NCBI RefSeq assembly: GCF_964355755.1
Contig: NC_092676.1
Coordinates: 21,036,871-21,100,870 of the forward strand
Direction of reading: 5' to 3'
DNA length: 64,000 nt
Source: Antedon mediterranea
Taxonomy: Eukaryota; Animalia; Echinodermata
Positions 1,227 through 26,000 of the stretch are shown in pieces; position 1 is the stretch's first letter; each line of letters starts with the position of its first letter. A model generated the notes under the pieces. The model made no database searches. It was not told where the DNA came from and saw nothing but the letters and a program-made list of their open reading frames with translations. Both the position numbers and the translations under genes were made by a program.

Positions 1227-4204
1227 CCCCCCGGCTGTCGTGTCTGTAGTGTCGTATTGAAAATTGCTTTGGGAATAATTAGAACCAAAATGCAAAATAA
1301 GAATTGTTATTATAATTATTTAGGAATTATAGCCATACTCACCTGTGGTGGCGCCAGGTTGGAATAGGTGAGGGAAGGGGGTTGTTGCTAGTACGTGAAG
1401 AAATTTTCGTAAATGGTTCACTACACGGGGTTTCGACGTGCGGAATGCATTTCATACACGTTTAAGATTTATTCATTGAAAATCAAGTTCTTTAATGAGG
1501 TAGAGTAACATATGTTAAAATCTGTAAAACCATATTATATTGGGTATCAATAAGAGGACAATGAACAATGCCGTCCTCTTGGTTATTCATTCATCATTCA
1601 TTCAATCTTTTATTTCGGAATCTCTGGTCCATACAAAGTAAATTTACACATAAATGAATTAAAAATAAACAAAAAGACTGTACTAATTACTACTGGACTA
1701 AACACAATACACTTGGTACCTCTCAGTTAAAAAATGACCAGTTATAATTTCGCGTTTGTTGGCTTAAATGATATCAACAACTACCAGTCAGAGATGCACA
1801 CTTTTTGCCTATTTAAAAATACTTTTATCACTGAAAATTATTGTCAATTATTCAATGTTGAGATACGCTCAAATTGTCTAAACTGAGAACATTCGTTGAT
1901 GGATGAAAAGAGGCGCCATATCCGTAGTTCTATACTTTACCCTTTGATAGACTATGTAAGAGGAACGAAATAATCTAATTTTCATTAAAAATGTTTGGGT
2001 TTTATTTGTGGGAAATATTTGATTTGTTCAGCCAATCACTATGTTAAACAACCTCATTCATTCTAAACCGGGCGGTTTAGAATTAATGTTCTTTGCCTGT
2101 TGTGTTTTATATATATATATAATATATACATATATATAAATCCAAAGGCAAATTACTGAAAAAATGGCAATGCTGTGGATATCAGTGACTGGATCTCAAT
2201 GGAGATACAAAAAAAAAGCGAAGAGCTAAATCAAAACGATAAAGTAAAAGTTAAAAACAGCCAGAAAAGTTAGCAGAGCTTTCGGGCAACACTAGCCCTC
2301 CATCAGTGCAAGTAAAGGAATTTGGATAACGTCATAGTATAAGAAATGGCAAGTGCTGCCTGGGTGGACAGGAATAAAAGAAATACAACAAAAGGAGACA
2401 GAATGGAGTCTGAATAAGAGTAGAAAACAAAGAAGGTAGTATATTATATATATAATTATTATACTGTTGGTTTTTCCATAAAACTTAAATAGATACCAAA
2501 CGATTGGGCGGCATATATTGGTTGATTAATTCTCTTATACAAAGAAAATAATAACAATATTCATTCTTTTCTTGCGCCTAATTGGTTCTAAAAATTCCCG
2601 AAACTTTAATATTAGTCGACACTAGAAGCTTCACTGATGCAGCCGTGTACGGGACAAGCTGTAAAAGTAGGGATTGTAAGTAGTGTTTTGGAATGTAATT
2701 AGTGTTTTGGAATGTAATTTTCCTAACAAACAAATCGTTACAAATTAGGTAGTTTACTGGAAGTTTCGAATTACCGACTGCGATAAAGTACACTTTGAAA
2801 TCCCGAAATTAAACCAGTGAAGAAATGTTGGACTTAACTATGGCAAACAGCATTTATTTGAAACTTCGAGTTTGCGACTTAAAGAAGGTTGTGCATACTA
2901 GAGTCTGTCCATGATAACATTACATTTTTTTAATGCATTCTTACCGTAATTGTTTACCCTATTTAAAAATAGAAAACTTGTCCTGTGACGTCATTTATAA
3001 CATTACGACATTGTCGGGGTTTTCCGTAAGATCTAAATAGATATCAAAAAATTAGATAGCAAATAAGATAGGAATGCAAGGGCGATATTTACCGAAGCAA
3101 CGGCGTTCTAGCGTAATTTGAGACCGTTTTAATATAATATTTTAGAGGCGAGTTTGTCATTTTTTAAGTGAAAAAAATACCTAAGATTTATCGTGACATT
3201 GTTATGTAATAAATATAAATATTGAAAGTTTGACTTGGTTTAGTGGCCAAGTATTATCAATAATTATTATTCTATAGAATGTTAAGATCAGGTAAAAAAA
3301 GCTAAGCCGATGAACGAATTACTAAAAATCGTAAAAAAATCCTCTTGTTTTTTCATTGCATTGCACATTGCATGAGGTTGTTTAACATAGTGATTGGCTG
3401 AACAAATCAAATATTTCCCACAAATAAAACCCAAACATTTTTAATGAAAATTAGATTATTTCGTTCCTCTTACATAGTCTATCAAAGGGTAAAGTATAGA
3501 ACTACGGATATGGCGCCTCTTTTCATCCATCAACGAATGTTCTCAGTTTAGACAATTTGAGCGTATCTCAACATTGAATAATTGACAATAATTTTCAGTG
3601 ATCAAAAGTATTTTTAAATAGGCAAAAAGTGTGCATCTCTGACTGGTAGTTGTTAATATCATTTAAGCCAACAAACGCGAAATTATAACTGGTCATTTTT
3701 TAACTGAGAGGTACCAAGTGTATTGTGTTTAGTCCAGTAGTAATTAGTACAGTCTTTTTGTTTATTTTTAATTCATTTATGTGTAAATTTACTTTGTATG
3801 GACCAGAGATTCCGAAATAAAAGATTGAATGAATGATGAATGAATAACCAAGAGGACGGCATTGTTCATTGTCCTCTTATTGATACCCAATATAATATGG
3901 TTTTACAGATTTTAACATATGTTACTCTACCCCATTAAAGAACTTGATTTTCAATGAATAAATCTTAAACGTGTGTGAAATGCATTCCGCACGTCGAAAC
4001 CCCGTGTAGTGAACCATTTACGAAAATTTCTTCACGTACTAGCAACAACTCCCTTCCCTCACCTATTCCAACCTGGCGCCACCACAGGTGAGTATGGCTA
4101 TAATTCCTAAATAATTATAATAACAATTCTTATTTTGCATTTTGGTTCTAATTATTCCCAAAGCAATTTTCAATACGACACTACAGACACGACAGCCGGG
4201 GGGC
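1227..4204. repeat. Long inverted repeat, arms 1227-2057 and 3372-4204 (~830 bp each)
   Basis: CCCCCCGGCTGTCGTGTCTG...AAACAACCTCAT is the near-exact reverse complement of ATGAGGTTGTTT...CAGCCGGGGGG, with only a few SNPs. Confidence 0.9.
2273..2312 (-). ncRNA. Minimal type I hammerhead ribozyme-like motif (Penelope/retrozyme type), core variant
   Basis: Minus strand reads UUGCA-CUGAUGG-A-GGGC-UAGUGUU-GCCC-GAAA-GC-UC-UGC. It has stem II GGGC/GCCC, palindromic stem III AGCU and stem I GCA/UGC. The core is CUGAUGG instead of CUGAUGA. It lies in a (TA)n-flanked segment (~2110-2455). Confidence 0.5.
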
Positions 4205-4686
4205 GATTTTTTTTTTCGTACATAAGTTGGGGACCCCCTCATGAAACGTCACAAAATAAACATGAATAATTCATCAGTTAAATTTTCTTGTTCCGTGTGC
4301 ACCCAAGCGTATAGCAACAAGAAGTGATTACAGTAGTTTACACAAGTGCGGTACGATTCTAGGCCTATCTCCGCTGTGGTTGCCGCGTGCGATTTCATAA
4401 TAGAATAGCGGCGTTTTGTGTGGATTGTCGAAATAATCAGCCTTTAGTTTATGGTGTGTTTAATATAATTTATTACTAAAGAATTACGTGTTAAAATTAT
4501 AGTTTCTATTGATACTATTAGGCCTAATTACTATTCTCTAAACCCATGTCTATTCTAGTAGTAGCTGTGTTGGTGTGTGTGACGTGTGTGTTAGAGTCAG
4601 CAAAATTAAACAATAAACATTCAACAAAAATACATTTTTTATTCTCGTGGGTCTAACCTTCCCATCTCATGTGTTCATATACGCGC

Positions 4687-5177
4687 TGTTACCGTAGGCG
4701 TCCATCATAAATAAATTACAAATTTTGTAGATACTGATGTTCCTTTATTTATTCTCTGAACTATCTCTTGTATCTCTACAAATTACAGTATCATTAGCAA
4801 CTTGAATAAACACCGTGAAAACTATAATAAAACAAAGATTAGCATTACAATGTAGGCCTAATCATATCATCATTGTACAGGCAGACAAGCACAGGTCTGA
4901 CTCATGGGGCCGGGGAACATGGTACCCTAAGGCCTAGGGCTAGCTCTCAGCAATGAAGTAAAACTCAACTAATTAAAAATACAAGTCATAAGTTATAATT
5001 ACAATCACATGAATAACCATGTGTAAATACCTTGTAGCCTATTTGGAGCCTATGGTAAAGATACTTTTAACAATGATTATCTCTAAACTTTATGTCATAA
5101 AATGTGTCTTATTCTCTCTTATCACTTTTTATCTATCTGAGCTCTAGAGGGCCTCCTGTAAGTAGGCTGCAGTTACA
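4687..5177 (-). repeat. 3' LTR (491 bp)
   Basis: No differences from 11309-11799 found by eye. Confidence 0.95.
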
Positions 5178-5294
5178 CTCCCACCCAAATCATCTATGAT
5201 TTAACCTAAACTTCCACCCGTGCCAGAATAAACACTAGCAATGCAAAACTGGAAGTACCTTAACAATATTTACCAAAACTATTGAAAGAATAAG

Positions 5295-8144
5295 TTAACA
5301 GTTTGTATTTTCTAAAATCAAGGTTAGTTTATGAATTGGCCTTTCCAAATATGTTGCGCGTTTCAACCGTTTTCCATCATTATCGATATTTGTGTCTGCA
5401 ACAATTAACCTAACTTTTCTCACTAGTCCGTCCTCACTTGGCATTAATTCAGATATTCTGGCCAATTTCCAGTCTCCGCGTATCAAATGTTCTTCTTTTA
5501 GTAGTACTATGTCTCCTATCTCAAGGTTTCGGCGTACTTGGTTCCACTTAGCTCTCGATTGAAGGTTGGTCAAATATTCCTTTTTCCATCTTGACCAAAA
5601 TTCATTGGCCAGAAACTGAACTCGACGCCATCTTCTTAATGCATATACGTCTTCCTTGACAAAGAACCCAGGCGGTGGAAAAACGATTTTCGATTTCATT
5701 GTGAGTAGCTGGTTTGGAGTTAAGGCTTCGGGTCCATGTGGATCATTTAGATTTTCGGTTGTTAGAGGTCTACTATTGACGATAGCCATCGTTTCGTACA
5801 GGAATGTACGGAGAGACGTGCTATCTAATCTTGACTTGTATTGATTAAGAATGGAATAGAGAACGTTACGGATTGTTCTTATTTGTCTTTCCCAAATGCC
5901 TCCCATATGACTGGCGGAAGGAACATTAGAAAAGAAGTTACAGTTTTGATCTGCTAGGAACTTTCGCACCTTATCTTCTTTAATCTCCTTAAAGGCCTTT
6001 GTGAGCTCATGTTGTGCTCCCATAAAGTTACTGCCTTGATCACAACGAAATTGACGAACATTGCCACGTATAGCAATGAAGCATCTAAGAGCGTTGATAA
6101 AGGCGTCTGTTGTCATGTCGTCGAGCATCTCTATATGAATGGCTCTTGATGCCATACATGTGAATAACAATCCATACCTTTTTAATTCTCTTCTTCCCTC
6201 CTTAACCAAAAATGGTCCAAAACAGTCAAACCCAGTATATGTAAACGGAGGGGTTGGTTCCAATCTTTCATTTGGTAAGTTTGCCATTTTTTGGTCTTGA
6301 TTACGCCCACGTAATTTTCTGCATTGAACACACTTGTAGATATGGCTTGATACAGCTGAACTTATTCCAACTATCCAAAATCCATTGGATCTAACTGCAT
6401 TGGTCGTAAAGCCTCTTCCTTGATGGGCTGTTTTCTCATGGTAGTGTTTAATTATTAAATGTGTTACATGGCTTCTTTTTGGCAATATTGCAGGATGTTT
6501 AACACCCATATCTAGAGAGGTGGCTCGTTTCAGGCGACCACCAACTCGCAGTAATCCGTCAACATCTACGTACGGGTCTAACTTCGCAAGATTGCCTGTG
6601 CACTTGGAAGATTGCTTGTAGAGTTGGTCGATGTCTTTTTTGAAGAACTTATGTTGGACCATTTTGATGATGGTCTTTTCAGCTTCGATTCTGTCTTCTA
6701 CAGAGGTAATGGTATAATGATTTTTGGTTTTTCTTGTTTTGATGAATTTCTTAAGAGCGGCAACTCCTGTAACTGCTCTCTTATAATCGGAAAAACGTTC
6801 TACACGATTTAGCAAGCAATTTTCTTCAGTGGAATTTATCGCAAGCACGCTAGCTTGGTTTACTTCCGGATCGTTGGAAGATACGTCAAATTTTTGATTA
6901 TTTTCCACTATATTTCCGCATTTCCAAAGGAGTTTTGGTCCTTGAAACCAGTTGGATGTCTGTAAGTCCTTTGCTCCAAGACCTCTTGAAGCATGGTCGG
7001 CTGGATTCTCATTCGTAGATATGTAGTTCCATTGTTCAGGATTTGTGGTATCTCTAATGCGTTGGACGCGATTAGCTACGTACACATGGAAACGTCTGGC
7101 TTCGTTTCTGACATAACCAAGTACTACCTTCGAGTCAGTCCAGAAGTAGTGTGCTGAATTTTTATATTCTAGTTCTTGATATAGAATGGTACTGACTTTC
7201 GTTGACAACACCGCGGCTTGTAGCTCTAATCTTGGAATACTAACAACCTTTTTGGGTGCCACTCGGGCCTTTGCCATTATCAGCGCACAGTGAATCTCAG
7301 AGAAGTCATTTTCAAGTCTTATATACGAGCACTGCCCATAACCAGAATTACTTGCGTCGGAAAAGTGATGAAATTCGACCTTTCTTTGTTGGAAATCTTT
7401 TGGTTTGAAGCACCTATTAATCGTAATGGTGGCAAGCTTTGGAAGGTCTAATCTCCATTTCTCCCATTTTGGACGAAGCTCCTCGGAAAGTTTTTCGTCC
7501 CAGTCTGTTCCCTCCTTGCACACTTCTTGCAGTATTTGCTTACCCTTGAGTGTAAATGGGGCAAGAAGTCCAAGTGGGTCGAAAATTGATGCTACAGTGG
7601 ATAGAATTCCTCGGCGTGTCAATGGAGTGTCTTTCATGGTGATTCTAAATTGAAAGTTATCTGACTCGACGCACCATTGTATTCCAAGGGCCCTTTCAAC
7701 TGGTAAGTCTTCGAATGATAGGTCTCGATCTACGGTTCCTTTAGCCTGTTCTGATTTTGGGATGGTAGACATAACGTCTCGTTGGTTGGAAATAAATTTA
7801 TGTAGTCTAAGTGAGCCCTTTGCACACAGTTTTCTGGCATCTTCTATTAATTCAACTGCTTCAGGTACAGTTTCTACGCTCTTTAGACCATCGTCTACAT
7901 AAAAGTTGTTCTTAATGAAGTTAACTGTCTCTGGTTTGTGTTGTTCGGCAAAGTGTTCCGCCATGTATTTTAGTCCGAAATTAGAGCAACCTGGTGAGGA
8001 AGCGGCTCCAAACAAGTGGACCTTCATTCTGTAATCTATGGGTTGCCTTTCGAGATTTCCATCTTCCCACCACAAGAAGCGTAGATAGTTTCTGTCATTC
8101 TGGTTAACATGAAACTGGTGAAACATCCTCTCTATATCACACAT
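5295..8144 (-). CDS. BEL/Pao pol: reverse transcriptase, RNase H, integrase (distal part of one polyprotein frame)
   Basis: Motifs CDIERMFHQF, NFYVDD, HHFSDAS, PRLELQAA, WTDSKVVL, HHCC zinc finger (HYHEKTAHQG...CVQC), D-CFGP / CDQGSNF / GIWERQI and YLERPIHKL. The same frame continues upstream to 8222 (HLLTGPDLNNTLIGVLCRFRQEPIAI). Confidence 0.93.
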   Translation of the reverse strand: MCDIERMFHQFHVNQNDRNYLRFLWWEDGNLERQPIDYRMKVHLFGAASSPGCSNFGLKYMAEHFAEQHKPETVNFIKNNFYVDDGLKSVETVPEAVELIEDARKLCAKGSLRLHKFISNQRDVMSTIPKSEQAKGTVDRDLSFEDLPVERALGIQWCVESDNFQFRITMKDTPLTRRGILSTVASIFDPLGLLAPFTLKGKQILQEVCKEGTDWDEKLSEELRPKWEKWRLDLPKLATITINRCFKPKDFQQRKVEFHHFSDASNSGYGQCSYIRLENDFSEIHCALIMAKARVAPKKVVSIPRLELQAAVLSTKVSTILYQELEYKNSAHYFWTDSKVVLGYVRNEARRFHVYVANRVQRIRDTTNPEQWNYISTNENPADHASRGLGAKDLQTSNWFQGPKLLWKCGNIVENNQKFDVSSNDPEVNQASVLAINSTEENCLLNRVERFSDYKRAVTGVAALKKFIKTRKTKNHYTITSVEDRIEAEKTIIKMVQHKFFKKDIDQLYKQSSKCTGNLAKLDPYVDVDGLLRVGGRLKRATSLDMGVKHPAILPKRSHVTHLIIKHYHEKTAHQGRGFTTNAVRSNGFWIVGISSAVSSHIYKCVQCRKLRGRNQDQKMANLPNERLEPTPPFTYTGFDCFGPFLVKEGRRELKRYGLLFTCMASRAIHIEMLDDMTTDAFINALRCFIAIRGNVRQFRCDQGSNFMGAQHELTKAFKEIKEDKVRKFLADQNCNFFSNVPSASHMGGIWERQIRTIRNVLYSILNQYKSRLDSTSLRTFLYETMAIVNSRPLTTENLNDPHGPEALTPNQLLTMKSKIVFPPPGFFVKEDVYALRRWRRVQFLANEFWSRWKKEYLTNLQSRAKWNQVRRNLEIGDIVLLKEEHLIRGDWKLARISELMPSEDGLVRKVRLIVADTNIDNDGKRLKRATYLERPIHKLTLILENTNC

Positions 8145-8222
8145 TATGGCTATGGGTTCTTGTCTAAATCTGCATAGTACACCTATGAGTGTGTTGTTTA
8201 GGTCTGGTCCAGTAAGAAGATG

Positions 8223-11200
8223 TTAATTCAAGGCTGTACCTTTGTAGTTAGCGGAGCAGTCAAAGACAACACGAATTTTGGTGGGTTTCTTAGGGTGGTA
8301 AATTCCGTGATGAGGTATGTACCATGCTGGCTCTTTTTGTATTTCATTTGCTGGTACTTTCTCGGCATCTCCATTTTGAAGTATTTCTGTCATAAATTTT
8401 TGATAATCTTCAAAGTACTTCTCATTCGTCAGGAAACGTCGTTTTAGGTGGTTCAATCGATGCAGTACACAAATTCTGTTATTCGGTAATACTGGCCTCT
8501 TTTTAAAGGGTAATGGCATTTCGATATGTCGGTCTTCATTGATATGGACTTCCTTTTTTAGAGTATCCATAAACTGCACGTCTTCTTGAGAGAGAACTGT
8601 GTCTCTTGTAACTTTCTCCGTGAAGTCGTACTCCAAGGCTCTTATTGCATCTAATGGAGTAACTATTTCTTTAACAGCTGTTTTTAAGACATAGTGAACT
8701 TCTTTGGTTGGTTCCGATTTCAAATTAGATTCGTACGTTAAGTGTAGATCGTTTGGAATTTCCTTCACCATTACTCTATGACTGTGACCGATTTTATCTT
8801 GAGGAACATAAGATGTCTCAGCTCCTCCTCCTACCACACTCCAACCCAATTGAGTTTTGATAGCGAATGGTTCATTTCCATTTCCTGAAATATGGTCTAT
8901 GGGTGCCAGAGCCTGTGGAACGTTATACCCAATAAGCAACCCTATTTCACAGTTTTGTCTAGATGGTATCTGTTGACTTATCCTTTGTAGATGAGCATAA
9001 CATCTCGTCTTTTCGGGTGTAGGAATATGTGATTGGTCAACTGGTATGTATTCTCTAGTATATGCCGTTGGTAGCTGAATTTTTGTTTCTTCAAAGAAAC
9101 CTCTAATCATTAGGTTGTTATACTTCTTGCAAGATACGACTTCCCTTTTAGACGTCATCGTAGTCAATCTTAGTGTTGCTGGTTCGCAACTTGCACCAAT
9201 TTGGTTTGCAGTATCTTCTAGCACAAAGGTTGTGTCGGATTGTGTGTCTAATAGGGCATATACAAGATGTTCCTTTTCAGGTTTATGTTCATTGGATATC
9301 CAGACGGGAACTATCATTGAAGACATTGTGTTGTTTGTGTTTCTGCGGACATTTTTGCAGTTTGAAGTCTTTACTGATTTTACCACTTCAGACTTAGCGT
9401 CACCATTCGGCCGAGTCTCGGCGTCAATCTCGTTAGCCTGATCTCTCTCCTTTACATTTGAAGTCTTTACTGATTGTACTACTTCAGACTTAGCGTCAAC
9501 ATTCGGCTGTGTCACGGCGTCAATCTCGTTAGCCGGATCTCTCTCCTTTACATGGAGACTTGTTGGATGTCTCCTTTGGCAAATTTTACAAATACTTTTC
9601 TGGTTACAGTTCCTTGACACATGGCCATGTTGTAAGCAGCTGAAACATAGACCATTTTGCTTGATGTATTGCTGTTTTTCGGTATCGGGTTTTCTGGCAA
9701 ACGCTCTGCAGTCACTTAGGTGATGGTTATTCATTTTACACATGAAGCATGATGGCATTCCACTGATACTGGTGGCTAGCGTTTGAGATTGGTTTCGATA
9801 TCTTGAACTTTTTTCTGTGAATTTTGTTTCATTTTCTGGTATTAAGGTAACAGGATCGCAAACAATTTCAGCTTCGGTCGTCAAAAATGTGGAAAAGTCA
9901 TTGAATGTTGGATAACTACCCTTGATTTGCATAGCGCTCACTGCGTTTCTTCGCCATCTATTCACTAACCAATCTGGTAATTTTTGAAGAATTTTCCGGT
10001 TTTCTCTGCTGTCATTAAGAACTTCCAAGCCTTTCATTTCCTTCATTGCTATGTTGCATTGGTTCAGAAAGTCAGAGAGTCGCCTAAGGCCATTGTAATC
10101 TCTTGCTTGAATCCTTGGCCAGCTGTCTAATTTGTCTCTAAATGCTTCGGAAACTATAAATGGATTTCCATATCTTTTTTCTAAAACTGATTTAGCGTTT
10201 TCATAAGCATGTTCACCTTGTAGCAGAAAGTGTCCACTGACAACTTCCTTTGCTGGGCCTCCTATGTATCTCTTAAGGTAGTGAATTCTGTCTGCCTTAG
10301 AAATTCCTTTATTTTCGATTAAACATCTAAAGGATGCGTTCCAATCATAGTACTTAAGAGGATCGCCATCAAATATTGGTGGCTCTGGTGCTGGTATGCG
10401 GTTCATCCTGAAGGCTGAAGAAAAGGCTTCTGCTAAAGCGTTTAAGTCTGTGGTACTGCTAGATTGATTTTGAGGCATTGTCGATTGGGCTGTTGTTGCT
10501 TGTGTCTGTGTCATTAGAGGTTGAGGTTTGGTTAGGTTGCGAAACCTTAGTGCATGATCATTTGAGGTTTGGTGTGGGGTGGTCATAATTTCTCCATATC
10601 CGTTCTGAATTTCCTGTTGAATTGCATCAACTCGTGCATTCTCTACAGCTGCAGCTTGTTTAGCCTCTAAAACTTTGAACTCTGCTTCAGCTTTGGCATG
10701 TTCTGTTCTTTGCTGTGCTTCCCGCCTTATTTCTTCAAGCCTTGCTTCTGCTTTCTTAATTTCCATTTCAGCTTCCTTTGCTGTAAGGTCTGCTTTCTGT
10801 TTAGCCATTTTTTCAGCAAATTGAGCAGTTTTGTTGGCTGCAGCAGCATTCGCCACAGCTTGAGCTTTAATGCTAACAATAGATCGACATGAACTCCTTG
10901 ATGCTGCAGATTTTGAGGCTTGACACTCCAGGGCTAATGCATGTGCCCTATCCATAGCGCTTGTTATACTAGCTTGGATGGAGTTGGTAATGGTGAGATA
11001 TATGTTCTCATTCTCCAGGTGATCTTCGCGATGAATACCATCTCTATCTTGTGCATACAATTTATTCAATACGCACCAAGCATCACTATATTCCTTTAAT
11101 GCAGCTTTAGCTTTGCATAATGCAGTTTGTATCTCAAATTCGTCGCTTGGAACATCTTCTAGTTCACTTGATGCTTCTTGAGCCTTTCTCTGAGTTTGAG

Positions 11201-11330
11201 TCAACAGTTTTACTTCAGTAGCAATGCTAATTGACAGGGCCTTAGCTGTAGGGCGTCTCTCACTCTGTTCTCTTAGATTCATTGAGTTTTCGTCAGCTAA
11301 GTTTTCACTGTTACCGTAGGCGTCCATCAT
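8223..11330 (-). CDS. BEL/Pao gag-protease-RT N-terminus; ends at a single in-frame TAA
   Basis: Gag motif FDGDPLKYYDW, three Cys/His knuckles (CFMC..H....C, CFSC...GH....C, CKIC...H...LH), aspartic protease ALLDTQSDTTF and RT start WYIPHHG...KIRVVFDCSA. Confidence 0.93.
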   Translation of the reverse strand: MMDAYGNSENLADENSMNLREQSERRPTAKALSISIATEVKLLTQTQRKAQEASSELEDVPSDEFEIQTALCKAKAALKEYSDAWCVLNKLYAQDRDGIHREDHLENENIYLTITNSIQASITSAMDRAHALALECQASKSAASRSSCRSIVSIKAQAVANAAAANKTAQFAEKMAKQKADLTAKEAEMEIKKAEARLEEIRREAQQRTEHAKAEAEFKVLEAKQAAAVENARVDAIQQEIQNGYGEIMTTPHQTSNDHALRFRNLTKPQPLMTQTQATTAQSTMPQNQSSSTTDLNALAEAFSSAFRMNRIPAPEPPIFDGDPLKYYDWNASFRCLIENKGISKADRIHYLKRYIGGPAKEVVSGHFLLQGEHAYENAKSVLEKRYGNPFIVSEAFRDKLDSWPRIQARDYNGLRRLSDFLNQCNIAMKEMKGLEVLNDSRENRKILQKLPDWLVNRWRRNAVSAMQIKGSYPTFNDFSTFLTTEAEIVCDPVTLIPENETKFTEKSSRYRNQSQTLATSISGMPSCFMCKMNNHHLSDCRAFARKPDTEKQQYIKQNGLCFSCLQHGHVSRNCNQKSICKICQRRHPTSLHVKERDPANEIDAVTQPNVDAKSEVVQSVKTSNVKERDQANEIDAETRPNGDAKSEVVKSVKTSNCKNVRRNTNNTMSSMIVPVWISNEHKPEKEHLVYALLDTQSDTTFVLEDTANQIGASCEPATLRLTTMTSKREVVSCKKYNNLMIRGFFEETKIQLPTAYTREYIPVDQSHIPTPEKTRCYAHLQRISQQIPSRQNCEIGLLIGYNVPQALAPIDHISGNGNEPFAIKTQLGWSVVGGGAETSYVPQDKIGHSHRVMVKEIPNDLHLTYESNLKSEPTKEVHYVLKTAVKEIVTPLDAIRALEYDFTEKVTRDTVLSQEDVQFMDTLKKEVHINEDRHIEMPLPFKKRPVLPNNRICVLHRLNHLKRRFLTNEKYFEDYQKFMTEILQNGDAEKVPANEIQKEPAWYIPHHGIYHPKKPTKIRVVFDCSANYKGTALN

Positions 11331-11799
11331 AAATAAATTACAAATTTTGTAGATACTGATGTTCCTTTATTTATTCTCTGAACTATCTCTTGTATCTCTA
11401 CAAATTACAGTATCATTAGCAACTTGAATAAACACCGTGAAAACTATAATAAAACAAAGATTAGCATTACAATGTAGGCCTAATCATATCATCATTGTAC
11501 AGGCAGACAAGCACAGGTCTGACTCATGGGGCCGGGGAACATGGTACCCTAAGGCCTAGGGCTAGCTCTCAGCAATGAAGTAAAACTCAACTAATTAAAA
11601 ATACAAGTCATAAGTTATAATTACAATCACATGAATAACCATGTGTAAATACCTTGTAGCCTATTTGGAGCCTATGGTAAAGATACTTTTAACAATGATT
11701 ATCTCTAAACTTTATGTCATAAAATGTGTCTTATTCTCTCTTATCACTTTTTATCTATCTGAGCTCTAGAGGGCCTCCTGTAAGTAGGCTGCAGTTACA
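11309..11799 (-). repeat. 5' LTR (491 bp)
   Basis: Starts TGTAAC and ends GGTAACA on the minus strand; AATAAA at ~11366-11375; the ORF's first ATG (11330) lies inside it. Confidence 0.95.
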
Positions 11800-13129
11800 C
11801 GCGCAGTTCCTTTGATTACATGCATATTGTTTGATAATAAAATAGCAGAATTAAAAAAATACAGTACACAAATTATACACATTCTTTATTCTTGTGGGTC
11901 TAAGCTTTCTTTGGGCTATGTCCAATGAATTACTACTTAGTGTAATGTCTTGCCTAGCTGTCGATTAGCCTCGACTCGACACATTTTGCATAGTGGTGTG
12001 CGTGTGTGTGTGAAGAAGAGTGCGCGAAGGCAGTCACGTGAATTGACTTAGAATCCTAGGCCTACTGTAAAAAGTATCGTATCGCAGTTGTGTAATCACT
12101 TCTTGTTGCTATACGCTTGGGTGCACACGGAACAAGAACATTTAACTGATGAATTATTCATGTTTATTTTGTGACGTTTCATGAGGGGGTCCCCAACTTA
12201 TGTACGAAAAAAAAAATCGCCCCCCGGCTGTCGTGTCTGTAGTGTCGTATTGAAAATTGCTTTGGGAATAATTAGAACCAAAATGCAAAATAAGAATTGT
12301 TATTATAATTATTTAGGAATTATATCCATACTCACCTGTGGTGGCGCCAGGTTGGAATAGGTGAGGGAAGGGGGTTGTTGCTAGTACGTGAAGAAATTTT
12401 CGTAAATGGTTCACTACACGGGGTTTCGACGTGCGGAATGCATTTCACACACGTTTAAGATTTATTCATTGAAAATCAAGTTCTTTAATGGGGTAGAGTA
12501 ACATATGTTAAAATCTGTAAAACCATATTATATTGGGTATCAATAAGAGGACAATGAACAATGCCGTCCTCTTGGTTATTCATTCATCATTCATTCAATC
12601 TTTTATTTCGGAATCTCTGGTCCATACAAAGTAAATTTAAAAGTAGGATTGTAAAATAGTGTTTTGGAACGTCATTTTCGTAACAAATCGTTTAAATGGT
12701 TTATGTGAAGTTTCGAGTGTTACGGTTATTAATACTGACTGAGAAAAAGTACACAATGTAAGGTATTGGAACCCCGGAATTAGGCCTGTAAGGAAGGTAG
12801 GATGGTTTATGAGTTCCACCGAGTGGCGCCAAATATATTTTCTTATTTTTTAGACGTTTGTTTGATCTCCGAGTTTGCCACTTTTGGAGAAGTATGTGTA
12901 TGTCCATCACATGACGTCTGTTATTTTTACATTATTATTAGTTGTTTTCCGCTTGTATAAATACAAATATACACTTTTTTCTGTGATCTCATTTATAATA
13001 ACACCTTCCAAATAGTGTATAAGTGAATTACAACATTACTGTTCATGTTTTTATACACCGTATAAAAGTTTTAAGCATTGCCATTTTTTTTACTGTGACA
13101 ATGTGCGCTTCACATTTTATTTTTAGATT

Positions 13130-16100
13130 ATGATGTCTTTCAAAATCAGTTGCGTCTGTTTACTTGTAATCTGTATGGGAAATAGATGCATGTCTAAACG
13201 TTACGACATCTCTAACTTAAGAGAAACATGTTCAACGACAAGCCAATGCGGTCCTCATCAATATGAACTAGGCTTAACAGAGACTGAAATCAACAAGTTT
13301 GCGCCGAAAGAGGCCAAGACATTTCCATGTCATTTAAATCGGAATCAACAAATCAGGTAATTTAGAAGAATTATCAAATTTATTTTATTGTATTGATGAT
13401 TTTGTTATATTGTATTTATTCGTTTGCATAGCACCTCGCCACGAACAGAGCGAGAGAACAGCTGATATACTACTTGATAAAAAGAAAATGCATACGTTTA
13501 AATAGAGGCACCAACAACAGGAAGCATGTCCCAGATGCATGAGGAAAAGGCCACCAACTTTCCTTTACATAATAGTTTTGTTACAAAGAATAACAGTAGA
13601 TAATATAATATTAATATACATAAAATGTATAATTTTAAGAAAAAAAAATGTTGAGTATATACTGTAATATATAAATTACCTCTAATGATTAAACCATTAG
13701 TTACGGCATTTTAGTTTACACCATGCTGCATCACATTTCATTTAAATATTTTTTTCTTTATTTGTTTTAATCCAACAATACAAATTTCATAATAACATTT
13801 TCATAAATTACTACCGGTAATGGCAAGAAAAGGAGGAGGAATTTAAGGATTTTAATCTCTTCCCCCCGCCCCACTTTTTTTAATCGAGAGTAATTGTTTA
13901 ATGACATGGAATGGAACACCTACTCTGAAAAACATAAATACTTCAATTAATATGCGAGTTTATTTTATCGTTTATTGCAGATACTATATTTGTCACCCGT
14001 GTTCTGTATGTGAACCACCATTTACAGTTCTTCTTGAATGTGGAAGAAAACACGACACAGTATGCTACCCCAATCATTCAAAAGGTTATTAATTTTACCA
14101 TTTGTTCTAATTTGATGCAAACACTCAACATATATATTCAACAAAAAATATGATAATAAATAGGACATAACCCAAGTAATTTTACCAATGAGAAGCGTGA
14201 TAGCTCTTTTGCGTTCATTTTCATGAGAACTTGGTTAAAACGTGGTTCCCACTAGGACGCAACGCAGCGACGTATCGACGCAAAGTGTTGTATTGCGTAA
14301 TCACAAGTGGGAACCGACGACGCAATAGTGCTGCAAACATCGCAGGTTTGATTTCACGCAGGCAGGGGCATCCAAACACAATTATTGGAAGGGAATTTTT
14401 TTATTTTGCGTAGATTGCGTTACGTTGCGTCGCTAGTGGGAACCAAGCTTAAGAAAAGCCCAGCCAAGAGAAGTATGCAAACGAATTAAATTGTTACGAT
14501 GATCCGCCCTGATAATGATATGAGCAGCTCTGTTCTGCATCTTTTGAAGCTGATCGGACAGACCCTTACCACAATTTCGCAAACTAAATCACAATAATTA
14601 ACGATTTGTAAAGTAAATTGAGTTTGGTTGTCAATCTTAATCAATCTCCATCTACCGCATTGTTTACCAAAATAAGTTTTTCTTTTTAACAGTTCAGCCG
14701 AGCTACATACCTAACCCTTCAACAAACGTGTCCCCAAAAACCATATTATATAGACAGCGTTTGCAAATAACTGCAGCCATGGATATACCGATCAATGAAG
14801 ATAGTGAAAGTAATAATAGAATAAAATGGCGGTTGTGGATGATTATTACTCTTGGTATAATTATTTGCGTTAATGTGGCGTTGGTTATCATAGTGAGGAA
14901 ACGGTAAGTGTATGACATTTAAAAAAAAAAAAAATTAATCCTTAAATGTATTATTCTTTAAGCGTGGTTCCCACTAGCGACGCAACGCAAGGACGTAACG
15001 CAACGTAAGTGAATTGACCAATCACAAGCGATGGCTTATTCGCATGTGATGTGTCTATAACTTCGCTTGTCATTGGTTAAAATGCTTGTTTGTTTGTTTG
15101 TTTTTATTTTTTGCTCATATAAAAATCAACAGTGGTACAGAAAATATATATACATCAAAAGTCGCAGACTTAACAAACAACAAAATCAGAACAAAGACAA
15201 CAACAAAAAACGAGTAGGAGCAAAAGATAACCCTCTAAACCCGGAGGTTTGCGTTGCGTTTCGTCCTTACGTTACGTTCTAGTGGGAACCAAGCTTTAAA
15301 GCGTGGTTTCCACTAGAACGCAACGCAGCGATGTATCGACGCAAAGTGCTGTATTGCGTAATCACAAGTGGGAACCGAGACGCAATATAGTGCTGAAAAC
15401 ATCGCAGGTTTGATTTCACGCAGGCGGGGGCAAACACAATGATTTTTACGTTGCATAGATTGCGTTACGTTGCGTCTCTAGTGAGAACCAAGCTTAATGA
15501 ACGGTGTTTTTAAACGCTGTTCATTAACAGATAATCAACACGTAAACAAGGACACTCAATAGCTGCTGTAACTGAAAAAATACCTGCGAAAGTGCACACA
15601 ACCATTAATTTGAATACACTATATTATTACATTTCAGGAGTAGACGTCCTTCCAAAAGAACTTTCAGAAATGAATCAACGGTCAACGTAATTCCCGCATC
15701 ATCTGAACAAACAGCCATAGGAGTAGACATACTCACAAACTGTAATATATCTTTAAGCACAACCACTCCGATGACTATGATAACAAGCACTAAACAGACA
15801 TCATACGACCCATTCTGGCTGGAAATTAAAGCAACCATTGGACCAGAAGGCGGTGTTTTATGTGACTCCAGATCTAGTGTAAGCTTAATTGTACCACCCG
15901 GGTCTATTCCAGAAACTCACCCCAAACAAGAGATTATCGTCCGAGTTGCACTTAAACCATCTAATTTTGGGCTTAACCAGCAAAAGTATTTAACTCTGCT
16001 AGGACCAGTGGTTGAATGTTTGTCGCCTGGTTTAGCAGAATTCAACTCGAATGTCACTTTGGTGGTGCCACATCGTGCTAAACTCAACCCCGACTGGAAG

Positions 16101-18013
16101 TTCCAGGTTCTACATTCCGAAGACAAGTACTCGGATCCCGTTTCTAAATTTCGATGGACAGTAACAAGTTCTAATCAAGATGCGAAACATGGTCTGCACT
16201 TTGAGGTTGACGAACATTTCTTTAGGATCAAAACAAGTCACTTTACAACATACACATGTGCTGGGAGCTGTTCTAGAAAGGCGCCCTTGAATCTGCAGGT
16301 TGTGGTGTATGGGGACTATGTTCATATAGACGGGAGGAAACAAACAGTCGATCTACGATGTTACGTCTGTGATACAATAAAGGATTATTCTCATACATTT
16401 CGTGTTAACGAGCGCAATGGTCCTTTGTGTGTACCACGACCAATCAACCATTTCTTCGACAAAAAGACAAAGAAAATTGAATTGTTTTTTCCAGAAGATG
16501 ATTTTGGAAGAGACTTTCCGTGGACATCTGAGACGTTTAACGATTCTCTTCCGAATTCAAGGGTAATTATCAATATTGATCAGTCACCATTAAAACCGTT
16601 ATCAGCAACATCAGAATAAACATCATCGTGATCAACATCATCATGATCAACACAAGCATGCTCAACACCTGCAGCATGATCAACACCAGCATGATCAATG
16701 CAAGCATGATCAATACCAGCATGATCAACACCAACATGATCAACACCATCTTGATAAAAACCATCATGATCAACACCATCACGATAAACACCAGCATGAT
16801 GAACACCATCATGATGAACACCATCATGATAAACACCATCATGATCAACGCCATGCATGCTCAACACCATCATGCTCAACACCATCATGCCCAATACCAT
16901 CATGCTCAACACCATCATGATCAACAACACCATCGTGATCAACACATATTGAACTCATTTTACTAAGTTTATTGATTACATATTTACAGGAAATATCTTT
17001 GAAGCACGTAGCCCGATGTTGTTCAGAGGCGATTCCACATTACGAGGCCTTCACGCTGAAACCTAAAGACGAGGAAACACAGGTCGACAGTTTAGAGATG
17101 ACATTGAAAATTTTTGCGAATGGTTTAACAGAAATCATTGGTCCAATAAGGATGATTACAATGGTACGTTCAATATTATACCTCTATTATTGTAGTTGTT
17201 TAAAATTAATCAAAAAACTGTTTACGAATTCCTGACAGTGTTAAACTAATGATATACTAAATTTGTTGTACTTATCGTTTGTTAAAGTATAAAGGCAAAT
17301 AGACAAAACTGAATGGGAACCTTTAATTGACTAAACTAATACATTTTTTATTTAGGATACCGGACGATTTCAACCACCAGCTCACTATACAGGTATTTGA
17401 CATTAATTTAAAATGAGAAAATATTTGCTTTTTCAAACTGCGCTTGACTGTCAACACATTAAGCTTTGTCTACACTATCAAACTTTATGTGATGTGTCCA
17501 TATATAGACATGATGATGTCATAACACTCCCATATTGCGGAGGTACCTAGAATTTTAGAAGAGCGTAACCTTTCATGGTATCTATGCATATTTACTAATT
17601 ATGATGCGGCGTTGATGTTTTGAGCGCGTCTACACAAACTAGCATAAAGTAAAACTTTGCATCATTAACCTATTGTATATAATGATAAAAATAATGTTTT
17701 TTGTTTAAATGTAGATATTGTGAGTAACGAAACATTAAGAGAAGTTTCACGACAGATTCCCAGAGATAAGTGGAAAGATGTCTATCGCACATTGCATGAT
17801 TTTGCGAAGTTTGAGGGAAGCGCGAACATTGATATTGAAAATATCGAGCACAACAATCAATCAGAAATGGGAGAAATGAAATACCAGGTATTGATGCTAT
17901 GGCGTACTAAAGCGGGCAGACAAGCTACGAAGACTGCATTAACGCAAGCCCTCAGGAGCTGCCAACTTAACAGTATCGCAGACGATTGCATCAAATTAGA
18001 GAGCACAATATAA
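13130..18013 (+). CDS. TNFR-like type I membrane receptor with cytoplasmic ZU5, UPA-like region and death domain (~658 aa)
   Basis: Exons 13130-13356, 13981-14084, 14693-14903, 15638-16562, 16990-17163, 17356-17392, 17715-18013; all introns GT-AG with consistent phases and no stops. Signal peptide; CHPCSVCEPPFTVLLECGRKHDTVC (TNFR repeat); TM LWMIITLGIIICVNVALVIIV; ZU5 GPEGGVL...VSLIVPPG...LGPVVEC...VTLVVPH; death domain KWKDVYRTL...YQVLMLW...LTQALRSCQLNSIAD. Confidence 0.85.
14239..14449. mobile_element. PIF/Harbinger-like MITE
   Basis: TIR A(A/G)CGTGGTTCCCACTAG / CTAGTGGGAACCAAGCT, TSD TAA. Confidence 0.8.
14961..15494. mobile_element. Two adjacent PIF/Harbinger-like MITEs of the same TIR family (14961-15295 and 15300-15494)
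   Basis: Same TIRs as 14239-14449, with TSDs TTA and TAA. The second copy is internally similar to 14239-14449. Confidence 0.8.
16621..16945 (+). repeat. Intronic 15-bp minisatellite (consensus CATCATGATCAACAC)
   Basis: About 20 degenerate tandem units inside the intron 16563-16989. Confidence 0.9.
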
Positions 18014-23000: not shown

Positions 23001-26000
23001 AAACTCATATATATATATATATATAAAATATAACATTAAATTAGGAAAATCAGTATCAATATTATATAATATAAAATCAAATAATGTAGTAACAAATAAA
23101 TCAATAGGTCAAAAGTTTAAAATATACCTTTTCAACTTAAGTATATTTTCAATTTTGCCTCAGTGGATTCTTATTCTAACAGTTTCATTTCATTATTTTT
23201 TTGGTCTATTTAAGTATATACAAAACAAAAAAAACTGATATAATACTGCACATACTTTTACAATACCAATGCAATTTATTATTTAATTTTTATCAAGTTA
23301 TCAAAATAGAATAAAGTCATTGAGATTTTATTATATTATTGCTTATAATTACATATTGCCTAATTAATTTAATTTTGAGTACACATAATATTTTCAAATT
23401 GCTGTCTTTGTAATAATTTCAACTTGATGAAATGATATAAAATCTTAAATAATATATTCAGCCGTCACTTGGAACAAATCCTATAGCGTGTGGAGCACCA
23501 GCGAAAGATGATGATGGCTTTGTTTTGGACATGGCAACTTCAGCAGTGGCTTTAGGAAAGGTACAGTAGTGAATTTATATATTTTAAATTAAACGTACTA
23601 ATCTGCCCGCATTACTTTTTGCCAGTGTTTTAAGGCAGAAATTATTTTCAATGAAAAGAATTTTAAAGATAGCTGACATATTTTGTAACTGAACCTAACC
23701 CTGAAAAATATTCTCTAGCAGATATTAAAAAAACAAAGAAACCAATGGCACTGAACTCAGAGCTTGAAATCCAGCCTAACCATTCACTGGCTTCAGATAT
23801 CTTAGTTTTCTAGACACCCTCTCAGAAAGGCTATTGTTATAGTTTCATTTATGTCCATGCTTATATAGCGCCCTCTATAAGGATATATGTCACAACTATG
23901 CTCATAACTATACTTTTTTTTACCATTATTTCTTAATAGATTGAGTTGAATGATCGTAAAGGCATCCCAATTCCAGATGGATGGGGCTCTGATGCCAGTG
24001 GAAAGGTACAGTAATTTTCCCTATAATCCATAATATTTAAACAAAAATTAATAAAAATTCTCCATTTCAATTATTCAAATTAATTTTTTTGAACTTTAAA
24101 AACTTGATTTACTCACAATGAAAATAGTGTCATAGCATTGTATACTATAAAAAAAAACACATTAATGTATTTACTGTACTAAGATCTTATTTTAATATTT
24201 TATATAATATTTTTTAGGTATCTAATGATTCCAAAGCAGTTTTGAGTGGAGGAGGTTTAATGCCGCTAGGAGGTACAGAGATGTGCAGTGGTTATAAGGT
24301 ACAAGTACTTCAAATTGACCCTAATTTATGTAAATTTTAGCTATTTTATCTTTATGGAAAAACGTATATATTAATTAAATAATAATACCAATCACTTTTC
24401 ACAAAATTAGTATTTCTATTACAAATAGTTACCTCTTCATCAAATTAAATTGATTGATATTGTAATTTGAGCCATTTTGCTTGAAGGAAAGTGGTATATA
24501 ATTATACATAAGAAAATGCTATTTCTATTACAAATAGTTACCCATTATACGAGGTCATTGATAACCCTATCCTATCTAATATTACAAACAATTTTAGCAC
24601 TAATTTTTTTCTTAAAGGGCTTGTATAATTGTTTAAAAAAATAGAAATGTAAACCATTTTGGTTGGAATAAGTTCCTCTAGATGCTATAATGTTTAAGCA
24701 TATCAGTGGACTGTGTCTTGAATTTGCTAATCTTTTCCATTTACACATTATTTCCTAGGGTTATGGATTGGGAATGATGGTGGAACTATTTTGTGGCATT
24801 CTTGGCGGAGCAAACTATGGTCCAAACATTAGGAAATGGAAATCGTCTAGTGAAGTGGCAAATCTGGCAAGTTTTATAATGCTTTTGTTTTAGGTGACCC
24901 ACTTAATTTAATGCTTTAGTTAATAATTACACTTATAGGGCACTTACTTTCTATCATGTGACCAACAATCATCCAATCAAATGACTGGATTCTATTTACG
25001 TGTTATATATTTGTGCCTAATGCATTTTTCTCAAATTCTTTTCTATGAAAGGCTCTGAAACCTTATAATTGATCGAAATGACACTTTACAATTAATTTCA
25101 CTCTTCCCTGGCTATATTAAATATTTTAATGAACACTGTAGTTAAGATGATCGTTTGATCATTTCAATGTGATTGTTCGGTGGAGCTATTGTATTTAGTG
25201 GAAAAGGGCAATACACAGATACATTGTTAACAATTTTATGATTTTGTGTTTGAAAAACTGCTTTATTTTTTTTATAGGGACAATGTTTTGTAGCCATTAA
25301 TCCAGAGGCCTTCGCTCCAGGCTTTCCAGACAGAATGCAATCTTTTATTGATGACTTTCGTAATTTACCGGCAGTGAGTAATTAGTTTTTTAAATTATTT
25401 AATTAATTATAAAAAATTAAATGTTTTGTTGTATTAATAATAATAATAATAAATTTGGACTTTTAAGTGCATAATGCATAAAGCCTTTATGCACTTCACA
25501 TGAAAATAAAAGTAATCCATGAAATAAATAAAATAAAAAGGCTATTTTAATGTAATTCTTCATTTTGTTAATTTCTAGGCTGAAGGTGAAACAGAAGTGC
25601 TTGTGGCTGGAGATCCAGAGAGAAAACACATTGATAAAGTGAAGAAAGATGGAGGCTTATCTTATCACAAAAATCTTATTGAACACATTGTAAGTATACA
25701 GTGTATTTTATATATATATAGCCGAGAATGTTAAAAAGTCGCTATCCAATCGAGTTTGAACAATACCATGAAAGCCCCAGTGGTCTAATGGTTAGGACAT
25801 CTGCATATCAAGCAGGCGGTCCGAGTTCGAGTCTCGGTAGGGGCGACTTTTTCTCATTCTCACAGATTTCCTCATCTTTATCGTTTCAAATTAATTAATT
25901 AAATTTCAGTATATCACCGGGCGGTTTAGAATTAATGTTCTTTGCCTGATGTGTTTATATATATATATATATGTATATCAATAAGCTTCACCATTGTTTG

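What the first reader, a model, noticed from the sequence alone, without database searches (positions are those of the whole stretch)
11296..11660. BEL/Pao element lacks a tRNA PBS but carries its own primer-complementary sequence in the LTR (candidate self-priming)
Seen: the 5' LTR is followed directly by GTGAAAACTTAGC (11308-11296, sense = minus strand), not the TGG that pairs with tRNA CCA. The LTR contains AGTTTTCAC (11445-11437), an exact 9-nt complement ending precisely at the LTR/PBS boundary. After a 2-nt GG bulge, TGTT can pair on with the LTR-terminal AACA. The intervening R-U5 has further inverted repeats (GATACTG/CAGTATC, TTGTAGA/TCTACAA) with AATAAA in the loop. Established: Tf1/sushi-group Gypsy elements prime with their own RNA 5' end folded onto the PBS and cleaved. 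Inference: this BEL lineage may have an analogous tRNA-independent mechanism. I do not know of it being characterised in BEL/Pao, but cannot check the literature.
Basis: partly seen in the sequence, partly recalled or inferred. Interest (0 to 1): 0.8.

Follow-up and report, generated by a model that had tools for sequence, protein, structure and literature searches.

The report
Splicing builds a retrotransposon's own primer
This BEL/Pao jumping gene and many related families lack the usual tRNA landing site; an intron in their terminal repeat splits a short sequence that matches that site once the intron is removed, so host splicing likely builds the primer with which the element would start copying itself.

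Summary
The AG that opens the 9-nt complement (11445-11444) is the acceptor of a 209-nt GT-AG intron inside the LTR (11652-11444). Contigs of one public sample hold this LTR with exactly that intron missing. In relatives the unspliced LTR pairs only 5-10 bases with the primer site; the exon-exon junction pairs 10-14 in 30 of 32 families scored and in 4 of 9 further regions searched blind. The primer site changes with each family's own junction, and none begins with TGG. Two more precise intron losses were found. Best reading: Tf1-like self-priming with a primer assembled by splicing. Transcription start, cleavage and priming are untested. This copy alone is weak evidence (10 against 9 pairs), and a competing fold is predicted for it. 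Ten literature searches found no BEL/Pao self-priming; key older papers and Repbase were unreadable. This scan noted the same thing before on other genomes; I reached it before looking.

The parts
11800..11804 (-). Target site duplication, upstream copy (GCGCG)
11309..11799 (-). 5' LTR, 491 nt, identical to the 3' LTR
11653..11664 (-). 3' end of predicted exon 1: 5' half of the predicted primer (last 3 nt extend the main helix; 11661-11658 form a second helix after a 2-nt bulge)
11444..11652 (-). 209-nt GT-AG intron in the LTR: donor 11652-11647, branch-like CTAAT 11464-11460, pyrimidine tract and acceptor 11459-11444
   Evidence: precise skip 11443 to 11653 in runs X2, X3, X4 and X2, X3, X5; sequence
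11437..11443 (-). First 7 nt of exon 2: 3' half of the predicted primer; predicted cut after 11437
   Evidence: cut site inferred from Tf1
11366..11375 (-). Two overlapping AATAAA poly(A)-signal hexamers
11311..11348 (-). U5-end stretch predicted to pair with exon 1 and the spliced junction in a competing fold
   Evidence: z -3.6 against shuffles
11295..11308 (-). Primer binding site position, directly after the LTR; no TGG; 10 contiguous pairs (14 with a bulge) with the spliced junction
8223..11282 (-). gag (DUF1759, triple Cys-His), protease and start of RT; ends in an in-frame stop at 8225-8223, so this copy is broken
5295..8222 (-). RT, RNase H (PF05380), integrase, DUF5641
5178..5192 (-). 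Polypurine tract, directly abutting the 3' LTR
4687..5177 (-). 3' LTR, with the same intron at 5030-4822
4682..4686 (-). Target site duplication, downstream copy

Best explanation
The LTR holds a GT-AG intron whose removal joins two halves of a sequence complementary to the site right after the 5' LTR, and this spliced leader likely serves as the element's own primer in place of a tRNA. Shown: the intron, its precise loss in some copies, and 10-14 pairs between each family's junction and its own primer site. Inferred: transcription starts in the LTR upstream of the donor; the cap-proximal copy of the intron is spliced; the junction folds onto the primer site; the RNA is cut just after the conserved AC (by RNase H, by analogy with Tf1), giving a 3'-OH one base from the LTR end. 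Inferred from standard LTR replication: strong-stop DNA reaches only the cut site, so after strand transfer everything upstream, intron included, is copied from the 3' LTR of the RNA. The intron survives when that copy is unspliced, and intron-less LTRs arise when it is spliced. Speculative: the intron keeps the 3' copy from pairing fully and being cut.
For: Precise GT..AG skip at summed depth 442/432/357 beside intron-containing 609/600/502 in X2, X3, X5. Spliced junction gives at least 10 contiguous pairs in 30 of 32 families; unspliced in 1 of 29 scorable. The donor picked by pairing alone ranks first on an intron-side donor score in 15 of 32 and in the top tenth in 21 of 32; Fisher p 8e-12, and 4e-6 with 18 families, one per clade. 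Cross-family junction/primer-site pairs reach 10 in 38 of 870. Positions 3-10 show 2-4 pair types each in 27 families. Predicted donors were found at the far end of split contigs L008, L020, L044 and L060 and far upstream in L005. Blind search hit 4 of 9 further regions, shuffles of those four 1 of 240. Precise intron loss in L053 and the L007 3' LTR. Second helix beyond a bulge: own -6.95 against cross -5.52 kcal/mol, p 0.0009. No TGG in the first 8 bases in 32 of 32.
Against: No raw RNA reads: start site, splicing of the 5' copy, cleavage and priming are unobserved, and the run types are unknown. The skip is absent from X1. In this copy splicing adds one contiguous pair (10 against 9; shuffle p 0.42). 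With 30 nt or more of exon 1 the window's spliced leader is predicted to fold exon 1 onto U5 instead (primer helix probability 0.0), and across 24 families the helix exceeds 0.5 in 19, 13, 8 and 7 as exon 1 grows from 15 to 100 nt, against 12, 9, 11 and 8 unspliced. Intron-less LTRs are common in one sample and L013 looks intron-less, so splicing is not needed once the junction is fixed in DNA. L076 shows no such pattern, nor do L065, L031, L085, L086. A Tf1-like R:U5 helix is not general (p 0.42).
Confidence: 0.74

Rival explanations
1. The primer is the same spliced junction but comes in trans, from a short LTR transcript that is spliced and polyadenylated at the LTR's own AATAAA (possibly also from solo LTRs) and then cut.
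For: A poly(A) hexamer lies between acceptor and LTR end in 20 of 24 families, which would define a terminal exon. The cis fold is disfavoured in the window with a long exon 1.
Against: Tight covariation of each site with its own LTR needs no second molecule; cis priming has the Tf1 precedent. No short RNA was observable here.
Confidence: 0.11
2. One reading: the RNA starts at the A at 11445 and the unspliced 9-mer is the primer, as in Tf1; the intron is incidental.
For: An RNA starting at 11445 forms the 9-bp helix at about 0.6. In 15 of 27 families exon 1 ends in AG, so 7-9 pairs form without splicing.
Against: In 12 of 27 families the unspliced form gives 5-7 pairs and the junction 10-11. 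Donor quality tracks pairing. The intron is lost precisely in three families.
Confidence: 0.06
3. The pairing is regulatory (translation, packaging or poly(A) control) and an unknown host RNA primes.
For: Competing exon 1:U5 helix in 5 of 23 families at z below -2 suggests RNA switches here. The host tRNA set could not be searched.
Against: The helix ends on an invariant C-G, A-U exactly at the LTR end in 27 of 27 families, the geometry a primer needs. 20 different 10-mers in 30 families are hard to serve with one host RNA.
Confidence: 0.07
4. Chance complementarity in AT-rich LTRs, inflated by my choice of LTR ends.
For: Most LTR ends were picked by an ACA|GT motif plus an upstream complement, so the first 5-7 pairs are partly circular.
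Against: Ends are fixed independently by LTR pairs for the window, L001-3, L007/9 and L047-51 and by contig ends for L024 and L062. Pairing across the junction was not used to pick ends. Shuffle controls.
Confidence: 0.02

Closest known systems
Tf1/Tf2 of Schizosaccharomyces pombe and the Tf1/sushi group, with plant Tcn1 (Ty3/gypsy)
   Same: No tRNA site; about 11 bases of the element's own LTR pair with the site after the 5' LTR. In Tf1 the first 11 bases pair and RNase H cuts between bases 11 and 12 (PMC7175516, passages; PMC5341516, passages).
   Different: Different superfamily. In Tf1 the primer is the contiguous 5' end of the RNA; here it is split by a spliceosomal intron and probably lies some way inside the leader. 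A shared R:U5 helix was not found across families.
TAR lineage of Ty1/copia (Houba, Osr-1)
   Same: Self-priming predicted from complementarity in the 5' LTR (PMC6317226, passages).
   Different: Copia, plants, contiguous complement; that paper's blastn test for 10 contiguous bases would miss an intron-split primer.
Belpaoviridae (BEL/Pao) as described by ICTV
   Same: LTRs, gag-PR-RT-RH-IN order, PF05380, PPT (PMC8742986, whole text).
   Different: [quoted passage not shown]
Penelope-like elements
   Same: Retroelements that keep spliceosomal introns; self-priming hypothesised (PMC3846280, passages).
   Different: No true LTR, gag or integrase; there the intron is not part of building a primer.
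Fungal GalEa copia 'conserved hairpin site'
   Same: LTR elements without a tRNA site (PMC5445492, passages).
   Different: The hairpin lies downstream of the LTR, and no LTR complement was found in that paper.

Membership tests
BEL/Pao (Belpaoviridae) | Paired LTRs with TG..CA ends, TSD, PPT | tested here: met
BEL/Pao (Belpaoviridae) | Gag with DUF1759 and three Cys-His fingers; PR-RT-RH-IN order; PF05380, DUF5641 | tested here: met
BEL/Pao (Belpaoviridae) | 18-nt tRNA-Arg/Gly primer site (a trait in the ICTV description, not the protein-based basis on which I file it) | tested here: not met
   No TGG in 32 of 32; host tRNA set unavailable
Sinbad / Sailor lineage of BEL/Pao | RT/RNase H tree placement with named Sinbad, Sparrow or Surcouf elements | not tested
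   No named references were on hand. Hints only: third finger CX2CX3HX4H, unlike Suzu's; named homologues from fish, molluscs, a nemertean, a brachiopod, a sea urchin and a sea anemone, matching the hosts given
Tf1/sushi self-priming group | Ty3/gypsy chromovirus pol | tested here: not met
   BEL/Pao domains; not a member, works like it
Tf1/sushi self-priming group | About 11-nt complement of the primer site in the element's own LTR | tested here: met
   10-14 after splicing in 30 of 32
Tf1/sushi self-priming group | Complement contiguous in DNA and at the very 5' end of the RNA | tested here: not met
   Split by an intron; start site itself unknown
Tf1/sushi self-priming group | R:U5 structure next to the primer helix | tested here: inconclusive
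   0.68 in the window's 11445-start fold; not general, p 0.42
Tf1/sushi self-priming group | RNase H cleavage releases the primer | not testable with these tools
   needs biochemistry

The most novel reading that the evidence does not exclude
A wide aquatic-animal BEL/Pao lineage has replaced tRNA priming with a primer made by the host spliceosome. An LTR intron is spliced in the 5' copy of the RNA and kept in the 3' copy, so splicing is an obligatory step of reverse transcription and tells the two ends of the genome apart, while an exon 1:U5 switch times the priming.
Probability: 0.5. Interest if true: 0.92.

Novelty: new variant of a known kind. Interest (0 to 1): 0.82.

Why it matters
It would add a third LTR superfamily to the self-primers and contradict the ICTV description of BEL/Pao as tRNA-primed. 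It would be a primer for reverse transcription assembled by splicing, which I did not find in the papers I could search. It explains how an intron can persist in an RNA-copied genome and predicts position-dependent splicing of two identical introns in one RNA, which long-read RNA data can test directly. It also shows why searches for tRNA sites or contiguous self-primers miss these elements.

Tried and rejected
No whole genome is held, so copies in this genome and host tRNAs could not be surveyed; the window's one tRNA-like gene matches the primer site by 2 bases. Viral contigs gave no relatives. No RNA holder listed; all runs are contigs and cannot show a start or strand. GG-bulge extension and inner inverted repeats rejected. 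General R:U5 helix rejected. TATA-like motifs found in 9 of 24 families at 35-260 nt from the donor, so no start site could be fixed. I first read TCAGT as an initiator at the start of the primer; dropped when it proved to be a splice acceptor. In one search the script picked a different site than the good donor for L044 (good donor, 11 pairs) and L080 (good donor beyond the 600-nt range, seen by eye); both still counted as at least 10 and were left out. Of 88 loci, 31 were scored and 9 regions; the rest were left out as repeats of a scored family or because LTR end or donor was not on the contig (for example L006, L011, L022, L033-36, L079). The two failures: L037, whose LTR is cut off inside the intron, and L013, which pairs 9 + bulge + 5 without an intron (by eye). 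The tree was a quick search with many open forks and was used only to pick one family per clade. DeMarco 2004 is not held. Look-alike search of earlier findings by place gave nothing.

Full report
Element. The finding lies in a young BEL/Pao element on the minus strand. Its two 491-nt LTRs are identical (11799-11309, 5177-4687), with a GCGCG target duplication and a PPT abutting the 3' LTR. The coding region carries DUF1759, PF05380, integrase and DUF5641 and is broken by one in-frame stop at 8225-8223. The best protein hits are 57-60% identical; named hits come from fish and marine invertebrates. No genome is held.

Observation. The LTR is followed directly by GTGAAAACTTAGC, and AGTTTTCAC at 11445-11437 is its exact complement; 0.3% of 20,000 shuffled LTRs hold it. 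Folding 11445-11280 pairs the two in the best structure, though overall stability is unremarkable (z -1.2). The proposed bulge extension has probability 0.0 and the two inner inverted repeats 0.19 and 0.05.

Contigs of public runs laid on the element show a joint that skips exactly 209 bases, 11652-11444. On the sense strand this begins GTATTT and ends in a pyrimidine tract and TAG, with CTAAT 16-20 bases upstream: a spliceosomal intron whose acceptor AG is the AG of the 9-mer. The joint stands at depth 442, 432 and 357 beside 609, 600 and 502 for the intron-containing form in X2, X3, X5, which are one sample; X1 lacks it. Run types are not on record. Varied flanks at both LTR ends and very deep cover of the flanking repeat look like DNA. 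If DNA, these are retrotransposed copies of spliced RNA; if RNA, they are the spliced RNA. Either way the intron is removed in vivo (inference).

Relatives. Scans returned 78 metagenome and 10 genome-collection loci, the latter presumably animal contamination in bacterial bins. Where LTR pairs fix the end independently (L001-3, L007/9, L047-51) or a contig ends there (L024, L062), ACA is followed by GT and a family-specific sequence whose complement lies in the LTR. Other ends were picked by motif, which makes the first 5-7 pairs partly circular but not the pairing across the junction. For the window and 31 loci I took every GT in the upstream region as a possible donor. The best junction gives 10-14 contiguous pairs in 30 of 32; the unspliced LTR gives 5-10, reaching 10 in 1 of 29 scorable. 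The donor chosen by pairing alone ranks first on an intron-side score (recalled frequencies) in 15 of 32, Fisher p 8e-12; with 18 families, one per clade of the tree, p 4e-6. Junctions pair with another family's site to 10 bases in 38 of 870 cases, all among families with similar sites, and there are 20 different 10-mers. In 27 families the two pairs at the primer 3' end are invariant, positions 3-10 show 2-4 pair types each (paired by selection), position 11 pairs in 22 and position 12 in 7: a Tf1-like length of about 11. Exon 1 ends in AG in 15 of 27 and in AT, GT, TG or CG in 12; those 12 decide between the spliced and unspliced models.

Independent tests. In contigs broken inside the LTR, the site at the contig start predicted a good donor at the far end in L008, L020, L044 and L060; for L034/35, L079, L057 and L058 the contig held little of the 3' LTR and no donor was found. 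A blind search for the whole arrangement hit L074, L067, L017 and L069 (11-13 pairs; shuffles 1 of 240) and missed L076, L065, L086, L031, L085. L053 lacks exactly the 168-base intron of its sister L050, and the L007 3' LTR exactly the 536-base intron of L009. A second helix beyond a small bulge is better within than across families (p 0.0009; 2 of 200 shuffles as good), so exon 1 is probably longer than the few bases in the main helix.

Against. This copy gains only one contiguous pair from splicing (shuffle p 0.42); its case rests on the skip and on the relatives. With 30 or more bases of exon 1, its spliced leader is predicted to pair exon 1 and the junction with the last 38 bases of U5 instead, and across 24 families the advantage of spliced over unspliced folding disappears for exon lengths of 60-100. 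That exon 1:U5 helix beats shuffles in 5 of 23 families, the window included; it may be a switch, or a sign that priming is in trans or chaperone-dependent. Intron-less LTRs are frequent in one sample and L013 appears intron-less, so the intron is dispensable at least for a time. No start site could be located. Family counts are not fully independent.

Mechanism. Shown: intron, precise losses, covarying complementarity ending at the LTR edge, no TGG (32 of 32). Inferred by analogy with Tf1 (passages of PMC7175516 and PMC5341516): cleavage after the AC and extension from there. Inferred from standard LTR replication (my knowledge): sequence upstream of the cut is copied from the 3' LTR, which explains both survival and occasional loss of the intron. 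Speculative: cap-proximal splicing favours the 5' copy, and the retained intron protects the 3' copy from being cut.

Known systems. ICTV describes Belpaoviridae as tRNA-primed (PMC8742986, whole text). Self-priming is reported for Tf1/sushi, Tcn1 and copia TAR (PMC6317226, passages). Term searches inside PMC554778, PMC3118150 and PMC6238403 found no 'PBS' and no discussion of priming; passages of PMC3601003, PMC5443660, PMC5445492, PMC8220671 and PMC3846280 gave nothing on BEL priming. Ten searches, seen as listings, showed no paper on BEL/Pao self-priming or a splice-built primer. The library lacks most subscription papers; DeMarco 2004 was not held; Frame 2001, Butler 2001, Lin and Levin 1997, Repbase and GyDB were not seen, nor any supplements, and any of them may note this. 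Three earlier notes of this scan report the same idea in other genomes; my reading was written down before, and they are unchecked AI notes, not evidence.

Verdict. A real, lineage-wide feature, richer than first reported: a likely self-primer assembled by splicing. New variant of a known kind; interest 0.82.

Noticed in passing
window 11800-12639 and 3604-4686: The element sits inside a very high-copy repeat (summed contig depth near 100,000 in X2 against about 1,100 for the LTR); near-identical pieces at 1226-1826, 3604-4332, 12091-12639.
   Followed up: no
window 9537-11338 against 5228-9566: Depth step (460 against 142 in X2, 72 against 9 in X1) suggests many internally deleted, non-autonomous copies that keep the LTR, primer site and 5' gag.
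   Followed up: no
window 9361-9552: 96-nt in-frame tandem duplication between the Gag fingers and the protease.
   Followed up: no
L029, L033, L036, L069: A subclade with a 3-4-base spacer between the LTR's CA and the primer site, and a short spacer after the PPT; L029 and L069 still pair through a spliced junction.
   Followed up: partly
L053, L066, L011, L067: The base triplet before the primer site is ATA, not ACA, in four loci on different branches; unexplained.
   Followed up: no
window 11653-11680 with 11311-11348: About 30 predicted pairs between exon 1 plus junction and the end of U5, mutually exclusive with the primer helix.
   Followed up: partly
window 15609-16956: ZU5-domain ORF followed by a 15-nt tandem array.
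   Followed up: no
window 25774-25845: tRNA-Asp-like gene with an ATC anticodon, probably a pseudogene or repeat.
   Followed up: no
L079-L088: BEL/Pao elements inside bacterial genome bins of the species collection, presumably host contamination.
   Followed up: no
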